Shown here piece by piece: positions 10,356-17,603 of a stretch of 64,000 nt of DNA. Made by a program: the position numbers and the translations under genes. Origin of the DNA: the human T2T-CHM13v2.0 reference genome, Homo sapiens. Position 1 is the stretch's first letter; every line of letters begins with the position of its first letter. The notes beneath the pieces are model-generated. The model was not told the DNA's origin. It saw only the letters and a program-made list of their open reading frames with translations, and searched no databases. The stretch lies in the NCBI GenBank assembly GCA_009914755.4, contig CP086569.2:34752001-34816000 (forward strand), read 5' to 3'.

Positions 10356-10651
10356 TTTTTTTAGACAGAGTCTTGTCGTGTTGCACAGGGTGGAGTACAA
10401 TGGCGCCATCTTTGCTCACTGCAACATCTGCCTCACGGGTCCAAGCGATTGTCCTCCCTCAGCCTCCCAGGTAGCTCGGACTACACCACACTGCGACTAC
10501 ACCAGCTGCCACCATGCCTACCTAATTTTTTGGATTTTTAGTAGTGACAGCGTTTCACTGTATTGGCCAGGATGGTCTTGATCTCTTCACCTTGTGATCC
10601 CCTTGCCTTGGCCTCCAAATTTGCTGGGATTACAGGCCTGAGCCAAGATCC
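10356..10651 (-). mobile_element. Alu SINE copy (U5)
   Basis: Poly-T at 10356-10362. Confidence 0.9.
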
Positions 10652-12770
10652 ATATTTTTTAAATGAAAAAAAATTTCAAAGGTACTCTGCTTGGTACAAT
10701 AATCAAATGTATAAACTGAGGAATAAAACATAACCATGAAACCTACTTATAACTGCATATGGAAAATACAGAGGATAATTTTTTAAATAACATATTTTGA
10801 AAGCCTTAACTAGTAATTTGAAGAGTTGGCATTTGAAAGGCCAGTATGAATATACCTTCAAAGCAGCAACACAGGTTCCCCATGAGAAACAGCAAACTCA
10901 GGGAAAATAAAACCACAAAGGTTCAAGCTCTTCTGACCTTTGAAAGACACAGCACAGACAGTGGTCCTTAGGACGAAGAGCAGGAGACCCCTAATTCCGT
11001 CACCATGGCGATAGGGCATAAACATTGCTGGGTGAGGGCACAATCCACATTGTGAGGTCCAACTGCTGCCAGGAAGACAGGAGTGCTTTTACATAGACCG
11101 AAAGGTCATTGAAGGCTCAGAGTTTTGTTTCAAGAACTGAATCCCAAGCCCACACGTTATTAGGCTGCGCTTCTTAAAACAAGCTATGAGATGGGAAAAA
11201 GGGCACCCACAAACATACGTATACATTATGTATATAATAATATACAGTATCATATATATAATATATATAACCTATGTATAATATTGTTTTACATCCTGCA
11301 TCTTATATTATATATATTGTCTAAAATATAATAATTGATAATATATAAGTTTTATATTTATACAATATGACATATAGTATATATTATAATTTATGACATA
11401 TATAATATATGTTATATATCATATATAGAATATATTATACGGTTAATATACGTATTAAATATAAATTATACATTATATATATTATATATAATATATCTGT
11501 TATATATAATACCCATTATGCATAATATGTATATTATGTCTCTGTTATATATAGTATAAAACAACATATAATAATATATAATTGTATATATAAAATGCGA
11601 CATATAATATATATTATATTTTATGACATATGTAATATATATTATATATTATATATAATACGTTGTATGTATAATACCTATATTAAATATATATTATATG
11701 ACTATGTTATTAATTACATGTCACATGTGTTATATATTATATATTTTACATAGAATATACCGGTTACATACAATATATACTATGTTACCTATAATGTATA
11801 ATTGATTACATGTAAAATAAAGAATGCAATATATTATGTATAATTTATAATATACAATATGTGGAATGTGATATATATAACATAGAATATATGATATATG
11901 ATATACAGTATATGATATATAACATACAATATATGATACCTAGTATATATGGTATACAATATATATTTTATGATATGTATTCTATATGTTTTATATTCTG
12001 TTATATATAACTATTTGAAATTATATATAACTGTATAATATTTTATGTAAATATGTAATATAATATATATAACTATATAATATATTATATATAACTATAT
12101 ATTATGTTATATATACTTTTATATCATAATTTACATAAAATGTCATAATATAATATATATTATACTATTTCATATTACATAATATATATTACATATCACC
12201 CAATATAAGTAACATACATAATATTATAATATAGATTATATTGTTATGTTAAATATCATATATATCATGTATCATATATTCTATAATATATATTATACAT
12301 AATATAATATGTATGTTGTCTATTATGTGATATATATAACTATATATTATTATATTATTATACATATAACTAGATAAACATGTAATTCTACATATTTTCA
12401 TTTATAATATATAGAATTATATAATCATATATAATTATTTATATTCTATAAAAAATTATATCATTATATAAATTATAATATAAAAAAATTATAATATGTA
12501 CTACAAATATATATATTATATATCATATATGATATAGTACCTTTGTTATATATCATAATACATATAAATGTGTATTATGATATCTATAATTATATAATTT
12601 CATATATAAGATGTATAATATGTATTATATATTGTATATGTTATGTAATATATATAGTATATATAAGCTGACACAGGTTAAATATTATATACTATGACAT
12701 ATAAAATATATGAGGTTATATGTTACATATAAGGCATAGCACATAACATGTAATATATATCATATATATA
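10356..12770. repeat. Unit U5 (2415 bp): Alu gamma ('cactgcgactacacc', 'gcctacctaat') + conserved C
   Basis: Delimited by Alu starts. 'gagaaacagcaaactcaggg..caagctc'. Confidence 0.85.
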
Positions 12771-13066
12771 TTTTTTTAGACAGAGTCTTGTCGTGTTGCA
12801 CAGGGTGGAGTACAATGGCGCCATCTTTGCTCACTGCAACATCTGCCTCACGGGTCCAAGCGATTGTCCTCCCTCAGCCTCCCAGGTAGCTGGGACTACA
12901 CCACACTGCGACTACACCAGCTGCCACCATGCCTACCTAATTTTTTGGATTTTTAGTAGTGACAGCGTTTCACTGTATTGGCCAGGATGGTCTTGATCTC
13001 TTCACCTTGTGATCCCCTTGCCTTGGCCTCCAAATTTGCTGGGATTACAGGCCTGAGCCAAGATCC
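12771..13066 (-). mobile_element. Alu SINE copy (U6)
   Basis: Poly-T at 12771-12777. Confidence 0.9.
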
Positions 13067-15187: not shown

Positions 15188-15483
15188 TTTTTTTAGACAG
15201 AGTCTTGTCGTGTTGCACAGGGTGGAGTACAATGGCGCCATCTTTGCTCACTGCAACATCTGCCTCACGGGTCCAAGCGATTGTCCTCCCTCAGCCTCCC
15301 AGGTAGCTGGGACTACACCACACTGCGACTACACCAGCTGCCACCATGCCTAGCTAATTTTTTGGATTTTTAGTAGTGACAGCGTTTCACTGTATTGGCC
15401 AGGATGGTCTTGATCTCTTCACCTTGTGATCCCCTTGCCTTGGCCTCCAAATTTGCTGGGATTACAGGCCTGAGCCAAGATCC
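15188..15483 (-). mobile_element. Alu SINE copy (U7)
   Basis: Poly-T at 15188-15194. Confidence 0.9.
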
Positions 15484-17603
15484 ATATTTTTTAAATGAAA
15501 AAAAATTTCAAAGGTACTCTGCTTGGTACAATAATCAAATGTATAAACTGAGGAATAAAACATAACCATGAAACCTACTTATAACTGCATATGGAAAATA
15601 CAGAGGATAATTTTTTAAATAACATATTTTGAAAGCCTTAACTAGTAATTTGAAGAGTTGGCATTTGAAAGGCCAGTATGAATATACCTTCAAAGCAGCA
15701 ACACAGGTTCCCCATGAGAAACAGCAAACTCAGGCAAAATAAAACCACAAAGGTTCAAGCTCTTCTGACCTTTGAAAGACACAGCACAGACAGTGGTCCT
15801 TAGGACGAAGAGCAGGAGACCCCTAATTCCGTCACCATGGCGATAGGGCATAAACATTGCTGGGTGAGGGCACAATCCACATTGTGAGGTCCAACTGCTG
15901 CCAGGAAGACAGGAGTGCTTTTACATAGACCGAAAGGTCATTGAAGGCTCAGAGTTTTGTTTCAAGAACTGAATCCCAAGCCCACACGTTATTAGGCTGC
16001 GCTTCTTAAAACAAGCTATGAGATGGGAAAAAGGGTACCCACAAACATACGTATACATTATGTATATAATAATATACAGTATCATATATATAATATATAT
16101 AACCTATGTATAATATTGTTTTACATCCTGCATCTTATATTATATATATTGTCTAAAATATAATAATTGATAATATATAAGTTTTATATTTATACAATAT
16201 GACATATAGTATATATTATAATTTATGACATATATAATATATGTTATATATCATATATAGAATATATTATACGGTTAATATACGTATTAAATATAAATTA
16301 TACATTATATATATTATATATAATATATCTGTTATATATAATACCCATTATGCATAATATGTATATTATGTCTTTGTTATATATAGTATAAAACAACATA
16401 TAATAATATATAATTGTATATATAAAATGCGACATATAATATATATTATATTTTATGACATATGTAATATATATTATATATTATATATAATACGTTGTAT
16501 GTATAATACCTATATTAAATATATATTATATGACTATGTTATTAATTACATGTCACATATGTTATATATTATATATTTTACATAGAATATACCGGTTACA
16601 TACAATATATACTATGTTACCTATAATGTATAATTGATTACATGTAAAATAAAGAATGCAATATATTATGTATAATTTATAATATACAATATGTGGAATG
16701 TGATATATATAACATATAATATATGATATATGATATACAGTATATGATATATAACACACAATATATGATACCTAATATATATGGTATACAATATATATTT
16801 TATGATATGTATTCTATATGTTTTATTTTCTGTTATATATAACTATTTGAAATTATATATAACTGTATAATATTTTATGTAAATATGTAATATAATATAT
16901 ATAACTATATAATATATTATATATAACTATATATTATGTTATATATACTTTTATAACATAATTTACATTAAATATCATAATATAATATATATTATATTAT
17001 TTCACATTACATAATATATATTACATATCACCCAATATAAGTAACATACATAATATTATAATATAGATTATATTATGTTATATTAAATATCATATATATC
17101 ATGTATCATATATTCTATAATATATATTACACATTATATAATATGTATGTTGTCTATTATGTGATATATATAACTATATATATAATTATATTATTATACA
17201 TATAACTAGATAAACATGAAATTCTACATATTTTCATTTATAATATATAGAATTATATAATCATATATAATTATTTATATTCTATAAAAAATTATATCAT
17301 TATATAAATTATAATATATAAAAATTATAATATGTACTACAAATATATATATTATATATCATATATGATATAGTACCTTTGTTATATATCATAATACATA
17401 TAAATGTGTATTATGTTATCTACAATTATATAATTTCATATATAAGATATATAATATGTATTATATATTGTATATGTTATGTAATATATAGTATATATAA
17501 GCTGACACAGGATAAATATTATATACTATGACATATAAAATATATGAGGTTATATGTTACATATAAGGCATAGCACATAACATGTAATATATATCATATA
17601 TAA
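15188..17603. repeat. Unit U7 (2416 bp): Alu gamma + conserved C; AT-rich block is chimeric (U5/U6-type 5' part, U3/U25-type 3' part)
   Basis: Switch of variant type between ~16380 and ~16555 ('tcacatatgttatat', 'acacacaatatatgatacctaatat' after that point). Confidence 0.8.

What the first reader, a model, noticed from the sequence alone, without database searches (positions are those of the whole stretch)
10356..17603. Run of three near-identical units (U5-U7) ending at a recombination junction inside the AT-rich block of U7
Seen: U5, U6 and U7 share the C-type conserved segment ('gagaaacagcaaactcaggg..caagctc') and gamma Alu with 'cactgcgactacacc'. U5 and U6 also share AT-rich private variants ('tattgtctaaaat', 'atgtatattatgtctctgtt', 'catagaatatatgat', 'acctagtatat'). 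In U7 the AT-rich block starts with this type ('atgtatattatgtctttgtt' at ~16360). From ~16555 it switches to the U3/U25 type ('tcacatatgttatat', 'acatataatatatgat..acacacaatatatgatacctaatat', 'acattaaatatcat..tttcacattac'). That localises an unequal-crossover or gene-conversion breakpoint to ~16380-16555, within pure AT-rich sequence.
Basis: seen in the sequence. Interest (0 to 1): 0.5.

Follow-up and report, generated by a model that had tools for sequence, protein, structure and literature searches.

The report
Hybrid repeat unit in DYZ2 satellite
The window is an ordinary tandem array of the human 2.4-kb HSat1B/DYZ2 satellite, and the reported junction is real but is only the far edge of a local three-copy expansion, the expected product of unequal exchange in such arrays.

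Summary
The window holds 26 full and 2 partial tandem units of about 2,418 bp. Each has an antisense 5'-truncated Alu, a roughly 40% GC segment and a roughly 13% GC AT-rich block. This matches published descriptions of human HSat1B/DYZ2.

The abrupt switch in U7 is confirmed:
- U7 differs from U6 at 4 sites in 15188-16374, none in 16375-16558 and 24 in 16559-17605.
- Against U3 the counts are 23, 0 and 7. Against U25 they are 29, 0 and 6.
- Max-chi-square is 29.6 and 37.3, reached by 0 of 5,000 permutations.

The framing needs correcting. U5 and U6 are 99.9% identical, but U7 as a whole is only 98.6-98.7% identical to them. The near-identical tract is three unit-lengths in a shifted phase. It runs from a mirror-image junction in U4 (9311-9467) to the U7 junction. 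Its two flanks, U3-right plus U4-left and U7-right plus U8-left, are copies of each other and of U25-right plus U26-left.

Mosaicism is pervasive, with at least 15 recombination intervals among the 26 units and three other recent one-unit duplications. Breakpoints are not enriched in AT-rich sequence. This is textbook satellite turnover, already described for DYZ2. Interest is low.

The parts
10356..12770 (.). Unit U5, a full 'S*' type unit. Antisense Alu fragment about 10356-10645, GC-richer HSATI part about 10646-11219 ending in ACATACG (11213-11219), AT-rich block 11220-12770.
   Evidence: Anchor spacing. Sequence. 99.9% identical to U6, with 3 differing columns.
12771..15187 (.). Unit U6, a full 'S*' type unit.
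15188..17605 (.). Unit U7, a hybrid. The left 1,187 bp is S* type and the right 1,047 bp is A type (the U3/U25 lineage).
   Evidence: Informative sites. Sliding window and max-chi-square. Pairwise alignments.
15188..15477 (-). 5'-truncated Alu fragment of U7. It aligns to AluY consensus positions 13-287 at 83% identity. The consensus was recalled from memory.
   Evidence: Literature description of DYZ2.
16375..16558 (.). Distal junction interval, 184 bp with no informative site. The lineage switch from S* to A type happens somewhere inside it. GC is 13.4% over 16374-16559.
   Evidence: Last S* marker at 16374, first A-type marker at 16559.
9311..9467 (.). Proximal (mirror) junction interval in U4, where the lineage switches from B type (U8/U26 lineage) to S* type.
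   Evidence: U4 vs U6: 26 differences in 7939-9310, 1 in 9311-9467, 1 in 9468-10355. Markers.
9468..16374 (.). Minimal extent of the near-identical S* tract. The maximal extent is 9311-16558, about three 2,417-bp unit-lengths in a phase starting near alignment column 1371. The three phase-shifted copies differ by 6-8 columns of 2,423.
   Evidence: Diagonal-run analysis. Phase-shifted comparison. Block-specific derived alleles at columns 138, 828, 1186 (U5-U7 only) and 1529, 1809, 1947, 2230 (U4-U6 only).
6890..9310 (.). Left flank copy 'X' (U3-right plus U4-left, that is A-right plus B-left).
   Evidence: Mutual nearest neighbours with 16559-18976 (18 differences) and 60078-62497 (22 differences).
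16559..18976 (.). Right flank copy 'X' (U7-right plus U8-left).
   Evidence: Offset-18 run from U7 column 1187 to U8 column 1738 against U25-U26.
60078..62497 (.). Third copy of 'X' (U25-right plus U26-left), inside an uninterrupted A-B pair.

Best explanation
The window is a tandem array of the human HSat1B/DYZ2 2.4-kb satellite.

Three variant lineages exist here as full-length units:
- 'S' (U5, U6, and more distantly U21-U23)
- 'A' (U3, U25)
- 'B' (U8, U26)

A young sub-lineage of S, called S*, was locally amplified. It now occupies three unit-lengths.

Its two ends are hybrid units made by homologous but out-of-register exchange, either unequal sister-chromatid or intrachromatid crossover, or gene conversion.
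- U4 is B-left joined to S*-right, with the junction in 9311-9467.
- U7 is S*-left joined to A-right, with the junction in 16375-16558.

Shown here: the sharp switch, the mirror junction, the three-copy tract, the duplicated flanks and the polarity of the alleles.

Inferred: the molecular mechanism, the order of events, and whether one double exchange or two separate exchanges made the two junctions.

No function is implied. This is neutral turnover (concerted evolution) of a heterochromatic satellite.
For: **Family identity**
- Period is 2,413-2,421 bp.
- Composition is tripartite, alternating about 40% and about 13% GC.
- An antisense Alu fragment covers AluY positions 13-287 at 83% identity.
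- 'ACATACG' sits at the joint of the GC-richer part and the AT-rich part in 26 of 26 units. Hallast et al. describe this feature for DYZ2.
- Rhie et al. describe the same three parts, and an Alu about 20% diverged.
- Copies 98.2-98.6% identical occur as contigs of about 2.4 kb in bacterial assemblies and metagenomes. This is the HSat1B contamination that Rhie et al. reported.

**Junction**; numbers are in the observation check.

**Mirror junction and three-copy tract**.

**Polarity**
- External copies carry the consensus allele at every S, A and B marker, and G at column 1371.
- U7 therefore combines derived S alleles (columns 138, 534, 571, 828, 1173) with derived A alleles (1371, 1569, 1781, 2031, 2237, 2263). 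This four-gamete configuration over about 6 + 6 sites requires recombination.

**Full-length families**
- S units (U5, U6, U22), A units (U3, U25) and B units (U8, U26) all exist full-length.
- Two hybrid units (U4, U7) is therefore the most parsimonious reading.
- U5/U6 carry the ancestral G at column 1371, where both U4 and U7 carry the derived A. This argues against U5/U6 being a U7-left plus U4-right hybrid.

**Context**
- The Hudson-Kaplan minimum is 15 recombination intervals among the 26 units.
- There are three other recent one-unit duplications (U19-U21, U22-U24, U14-U16).
Against: - The argument that U5/U6 are not the recombinants rests partly on a single site (column 1371). The rest is parsimony over U21-U23, which are only 98.2-99.0% identical to U5/U6.
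- In a frame starting at column 1371 the local array reads X, S*, S*, S*, X with no hybrid unit at all. 'Hybrid' therefore depends on the frame. Only the switch of lineage is frame-independent.
- The two junction intervals abut at the same phase (columns 1371-1529 and 1186-1371). That could hint at a single event of a kind I could not reconstruct.
- Read-level support for the assembly across 9.3-16.7 kb could not be checked.
- Chromosomal origin (Yq12 or an acrocentric short arm), and even the species, are inferred from literature descriptions. They were not tested by alignment to a reference genome.
Confidence: 0.8

Rival explanations
1. U4 (B-left plus S-right) and U7 (S-left plus A-right) are the original neighbours. 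U5/U6 are the recombinants. One unequal sister-chromatid exchange between misaligned U4 and U7 made a U7-left plus U4-right hybrid, which then duplicated once more. On this reading the 'junction' in U7 is only an old boundary between variant patches, not the site of the exchange.
For: In the frame starting at column 1371 the three copies are near-identical (6-8 differences) and bounded at the same phase on both sides. That is what in-situ amplification of one unit-length gives. The other three young duplications in the window are of this simple kind.
Against: - U5/U6 have the ancestral G at column 1371, while both U4 and U7 have the derived A. A U7-left plus U4-right hybrid would carry A wherever the crossover fell.
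- U21-U23 carry S-left and S-right markers together but lack the block-specific alleles (138, 828, 1186, 1529, 1809, 1947, 2230). The S-left plus S-right combination therefore predates the block.
- Even on this model, U7 still combines derived S-left and derived A-right alleles. An older exchange at the same place is still required.
Confidence: 0.1
2. Assembly artefact. A false join or collapse between two similar parts of a long satellite array created the abrupt switches at about 9.4 kb and about 16.5 kb.
For: Both switches lie in marker-free stretches of 157-184 bp inside units that are otherwise about 98% identical. Assemblers can mis-thread in such places. The flanks are duplicates of each other, as a mis-join between two A-B contexts would give.
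Against: - The S* tract carries its own private alleles in all three copies, and each copy also has its own private differences (121, 1550, the 1886-7 indel, 547, 848). These look like real, separately evolving copies.
- Mosaicism of the same kind is seen throughout the window (Rm of at least 15).
- It is also documented for this satellite in validated T2T assemblies.
Confidence: 0.07
3. No exchange occurred. The pattern arose by independent or recurrent mutation, or is a gradual change of similarity along U7.
For: None beyond the general mutability of AT-rich sequence.
Against: There are 0 differences versus 24, and 23-29 versus 6-7, on the two sides of one point. None of 5,000 permutations reached the observed statistic. 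About a dozen shared derived alleles would each need to have recurred.
Confidence: 0.01

Closest known systems
Human satellite HSat1B / DYZ2 (RepeatMasker HSATI; the 'male-specific 2.47-kb' satellite I repeat with one Alu per unit)
   Same: - Unit length is 2,413-2,421 bp. The published modal length is 2,413 bp, or 2,420 bp with the ACATACG heptamer.
- The three parts match: an AT-rich block (about 87% AT), a 5'-truncated diverged AluY fragment and a GC-richer HSATI part.
- The ACATACG joint is present.
- Units are 98.2-99.1% identical to the array consensus (papers).
   Different: Nothing structural. Whether this array lies in Yq12 or on an acrocentric short arm was not determined. Units U2-U8 and U19-U26 form a derived variant group, with 34-57 differences from the external consensus.
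Local expansions, contractions and hybrid repeat units made by unequal exchange in satellite arrays (Smith 1976 model, from my own knowledge; T2T-Y Extended Data Fig. 8d and Hallast et al. Yq12 analysis)
   Same: Young multi-copy tract with phase-shifted boundaries. Hybrid units at its edges. Pervasive mosaicism. Neighbouring units more alike than distant ones.
   Different: The published analyses work at the scale of 2-kb k-mer dotplots and per-unit divergence. They mostly ignore the AT-rich part as too variable. Here a junction is resolved to 184 bp inside that part.

Membership tests
HSat1B / DYZ2 satellite | Tandem unit of about 2.4 kb (mode 2,413 bp; 2,420-bp consensus including ACATACG) | tested here: met
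   26 spacings of 2,413-2,421 bp. Definition from 10.1101/2022.12.01.518658.
HSat1B / DYZ2 satellite | Composite unit: extremely AT-rich region (>85% AT), ancient 5'-truncated AluY fragment about 20% diverged, and a GC-richer HSATI part | tested here: met
   GC alternates between about 0.13 and about 0.40 with the unit period. The Alu fragment aligns to AluY positions 13-287 at 83% identity on the minus strand (consensus recalled from memory). Description.
HSat1B / DYZ2 satellite | Heptamer ACATACG at the joint between HSATI and the AT-rich repeat | tested here: met
   Present once per unit at the joint in all 26 units, for example 11213 and 16045. Feature.
HSat1B / DYZ2 satellite | Direct sequence identity to the published DYZ2 consensus or a human reference | not testable with these tools
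   No human reference is available. Indirect support: 98.2-98.6% identity to contaminant contigs of about 2.4 kb in bacterial assemblies and metagenomes. Rhie et al. attribute this class of contaminant to HSat1B.
Yq12 location (DYZ2 proper) rather than acrocentric HSat1B | Array flanked by or alternating with DYZ1 (HSat3) blocks, or clustering with Y copies in a phylogeny | not testable with these tools
   The window is entirely HSat1B, with no DYZ1 boundary in 64 kb.
Recombinant (hybrid) repeat unit from unequal exchange or conversion | Single abrupt switch of nearest neighbour, with shared derived alleles of two different lineages on either side | tested here: met
   Alleles polarised with external copies.
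Recombinant (hybrid) repeat unit from unequal exchange or conversion | Both parental lineages exist as non-hybrid full-length units | tested here: met
   S: U5, U6, U22. A: U3, U25.
Recombination hotspot in AT-rich or palindromic sequence | Excess of breakpoints in the AT-rich block relative to its share of the unit | tested here: not met
   9 of the 15 minimal recombination intervals lie wholly within the AT-rich part, and one more spans its boundary. About 9.7 are expected from its 64.5% share of the unit. The phases of the young duplications are scattered (columns 275-533, 572-902, 1064-1954). Inverted repeats in 16250-16700 are imperfect (mostly 71-88% complementary; only two short arms of 12-15 nt are 100%) and are typical of TA-rich sequence.

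The most novel reading that the evidence does not exclude
The two edges of the S* tract fall at essentially the same phase of the unit (columns 1371-1529 and 1186-1371), and the tract is flanked by duplicate copies of the same A-right plus B-left segment. A single concerted event might have produced both edges, for example a gap-repair or conversion-type insertion of a multi-unit tract. If so, that position in the AT-rich block might be a preferred exchange site in DYZ2.
Probability: 0.07. Interest if true: 0.35.

Novelty: already known. Interest (0 to 1): 0.12.

Why it matters
It matters little. The result gives a clean example, resolved to 184 bp, of how a heterochromatic satellite turns over. 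It also shows that the AT-rich part of DYZ2, which published analyses usually discard as too variable, aligns well within an array and carries most of the informative variants (267 of 366 variable columns). Such markers could be used to trace expansions and contractions of DYZ2 arrays between Y haplotypes. It does not reveal a new element, gene or mechanism.

Tried and rejected
1. An Rfam scan of one unit found only a sub-threshold hit to mir-1268, a known Alu-derived family (23 bits against a gathering score of 83). No structured RNA was found.
2. Inverted repeats or palindromes at the junction, as a possible cause of breakage, gave only imperfect TA-rich self-complementarity, as found everywhere in the block.
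3. A higher-order repeat structure of several units was sought. No long multi-unit diagonal was found beyond the local duplications and one weak offset-18 run.
4. External copies were used to look for the same hybrid elsewhere. The 20 fetched loci are mostly collapsed consensus contigs and carry none of the S, A or B alleles. They polarise the alleles but cannot show whether U7-type units exist elsewhere.
5. An AT-rich breakpoint hotspot is not supported.
6. I tried to reconstruct one unique order of events. Several histories fit: two separate exchanges, a dimer duplication followed by local expansion, or conversion followed by expansion. I could not discriminate between them.
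Full report
**What the window is**

An anchor at the start of the Alu-like segment recurs 27 times, at spacings of 2,413-2,421 bp. GC content alternates with the same period between about 0.40 (roughly 1 kb) and about 0.13 (roughly 1.4 kb).

On the + strand each unit has three parts:
- **Alu fragment.** It is antisense and aligns to AluY consensus positions 13-287 at 83% identity.
- **GC-richer segment.** It runs about 570 bp and ends in ACATACG in all 26 units.
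- **AT-rich block.** It fills the remaining roughly 1.4-1.55 kb of the unit.

This is the published anatomy of human HSat1B/DYZ2.
- Hallast et al. [quoted passage not shown] Their modal length is 2,413 bp, extended to a 2,420-bp consensus by the heptamer ACATACG at the HSATI/AT-rich joint.
- Rhie et al. [quoted passage not shown]

An invariant 30-mer from the unit finds 20 contigs. These include contigs of about 2.4 kb in Mycobacterium, Actinomadura, Streptomyces and Senimuribacter assemblies, and in metagenomes. Many are 98.2-98.6% identical to U7; the rest are more diverged. This is the HSat1B contamination of bacterial assemblies that Rhie et al. reported.

I could not align to a human reference. 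The species, and the choice between Yq12 and an acrocentric arm, are therefore inferred.

**Checking the observation**

A MAFFT alignment of the 26 units has 2,423 columns. Background pairwise identity is about 97-98%.
- U5 and U6 are 99.9% identical, with three differing columns: 10477 C/G and a TA indel at 12242.
- U7 is only 98.6-98.7% identical to U5/U6, and 98.7% and 98.5% identical to U3 and U25.

'Three near-identical units' is therefore not accurate in this frame.

The switch itself is real and sharp. Independent pairwise global alignments give these difference counts:

| Comparison | 15188-16374 | 16375-16558 | 16559-17605 |
|---|---|---|---|
| U7 vs U6 | 4 | 0 | 24 |
| U7 vs U3 | 23 | 0 | 7 |
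| U7 vs U25 | 29 | 0 | 6 |

- In 300-column windows the best match is U5/U6 up to about 16587 and U3/U25 from about 16388 onwards.
- The maximum chi-square test places the break between 16361 and 16559. Chi-square is 29.6 and 37.3, reached by 0 of 5,000 permutations.
- Site 16374 (C in U5/U6, T in U7, A in all other units) extends the left type to 16374.

The exceptions are 15353 on the left and 16816, 16893 and 17044 on the right. At each, U7 keeps the consensus allele and the other lineage has a later change.

The right half of U4 is the U5/U6 type. U4 vs U6 shows 26 differences in 7939-9310, one in 9311-9467 and one in 9468-10355.

Derived alleles at columns 1529, 1809, 1947 and 2230 occur only in U4-U6. 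Those at 138, 828 and 1186 occur only in U5-U7.

A scan of diagonals at unit offsets finds one tract of 4,963 columns at offset 1, running from mid-U4 to mid-U7. If units are cut at column 1371 instead of at the Alu, the three copies U4R+U5L, U5R+U6L and U6R+U7L differ by only 6-8 columns. The near-identical run is therefore three unit-lengths, from 9311-9467 to 16375-16558, and it has a junction at each end.

The flanks are themselves copies. U3R+U4L, U7R+U8L and U25R+U26L are mutual nearest neighbours, with 16-22 differences against a background of about 40-60.

**Which unit is the recombinant**

The external copies carry the consensus allele at every marker that distinguishes the lineages, and G at column 1371. 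This polarises the alleles.
- U7 combines derived alleles of the S lineage (columns 138, 534, 571, 828, 1173) with derived alleles of the A lineage (1371, 1569, 1781, 2031, 2237, 2263).
- U5/U6 have S alleles on both sides, and so does U22 more distantly.
- U3/U25 have A alleles on both sides.

Across this many sites, that four-gamete pattern needs an exchange between columns 1186 and 1371.

The simplest history treats U7 (S-left/A-right) and U4 (B-left/S-right) as the hybrids.

The alternative is that U4 and U7 are original neighbours and U5/U6 arose as a U7-left plus U4-right hybrid. Two observations disfavour it:
- U5/U6 carry the ancestral G at column 1371, where both U4 and U7 carry the derived A.
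- U21-U23 carry S-left and S-right markers together without the block-specific alleles.

This rests on one site plus parsimony, so I give the alternative about 10%.

**Context**

Mosaicism is the rule in this array.
- Hudson-Kaplan analysis of 110 biallelic informative sites gives a minimum of 15 recombination intervals.
- Nine of these lie wholly in the AT-rich part and one more spans its boundary, where about 9.7 are expected from its 64.5% share of the unit.
- Three other young one-unit duplications are visible (U19-U21, U22-U24, U14-U16), each with a different phase.
- Inverted repeats at the junction are unremarkable for TA-rich sequence.

There is therefore no evidence for a hotspot.

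The literature already describes this behaviour for DYZ2. [quoted passage not shown]

**Mechanism**

The mechanism is inferred. The proposal is homologous pairing one or more units out of register, between sister chromatids or within one chromatid, followed by crossover or conversion.

Such events first amplified an S* unit and then joined the S* tract to a B unit on one side and an A unit on the other. Alternatively they joined first and amplified afterwards.

- The copy ending in U7 is the outgroup of the three. It differs from the other two at 15353, 15735, 16036 and 16374.
- The left part of U7 differs from U5/U6 by about 0.34%.
- The right part of U7 differs from U3/U25 by about 0.6-0.7%.

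I could not decide between two separate exchanges and one double event. I also could not exclude an assembly chimera without reads, and give that about 7%.

**Verdict**

The central interpretation, a sharp exchange breakpoint at about 16.38-16.56 kb, is supported. The feature is an ordinary and already understood consequence of satellite evolution in a well-known human satellite. Interest is 0.12.

Noticed in passing
window 1-64000 (units U1, U9-U18 versus U2-U8, U19-U26): The array contains two broad variant groups. U1 and U9-U18 are close to the external, genome-wide collapsed consensus; U17 differs at only 11 columns. U2-U8 and U19-U26 are a derived group with 34-57 differences. About 16 marker columns separate the groups (for example 14, 38, 70, 951, 1001, 1448, 2005, 2059, 2106, 2318). 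Some boundary units (U2, U9-U11) are mosaics of the two.
   Followed up: partly
window 44480-49572, 52026-57190, 34068-38016: Three other young one-unit tandem duplications, each in a different phase. U19 column 275 to U21 column 533 has 1 mismatch in 2,682 columns. U22 column 572 to U24 column 902 has 2 in 2,754. U14 column 1954 to U16 column 1064 has 3 in 1,534.
   Followed up: partly
window 17606-20019 (U8): U8 is itself a mosaic. It is B type (shared with U26, including the 3-bp deletion at columns 1679-1681) up to about column 1738. From about column 1894 it carries alleles otherwise found only in U4-U6 (for example columns 2328 T and 2420 A), but it lacks the block-private alleles at 1947 and 2230.
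   Followed up: no
L001-L005 (for example LZSC01000004.1 Mycobacterium sp., BMRF01000089.1 Actinomadura cremea, CALPCJ010000037.1 Senimuribacter sp.): Species-representative bacterial genome assemblies contain contigs of about 0.7-2.5 kb that are 96.6-98.6% identical to this satellite unit. These are human HSat1B contamination, as Rhie et al. reported for RefSeq.
   Followed up: partly
L007, L009, L010 (BNJT01002008.1, BNJU01004413.1; 54-kb metagenome contigs), L014-L016: Long metagenome contigs hold arrays of the same repeat with units only 80-97% identical to the window. Some short contigs join a 98% unit to a 90-92% unit. These could be diverged HSat1B subfamilies (acrocentric copies?) or noisy long-read assemblies.
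   Followed up: no
window 10458-10524 (minus strand) and the same place in every unit: Weak, sub-threshold Rfam match to mir-1268 (23 bits against a gathering score of 83) inside the Alu fragment. This region also carries a small internal duplication ('gactacacc' twice) relative to AluY.
   Followed up: no
whole alignment of units: The AT-rich block aligns cleanly between units despite its low complexity. It holds 267 of the 366 variable columns (0.171 per column, against 0.140 in the Alu part and 0.102 in the HSATI part). It is the most informative part for tracing unit lineages, although published DYZ2 analyses exclude it.
   Followed up: partly
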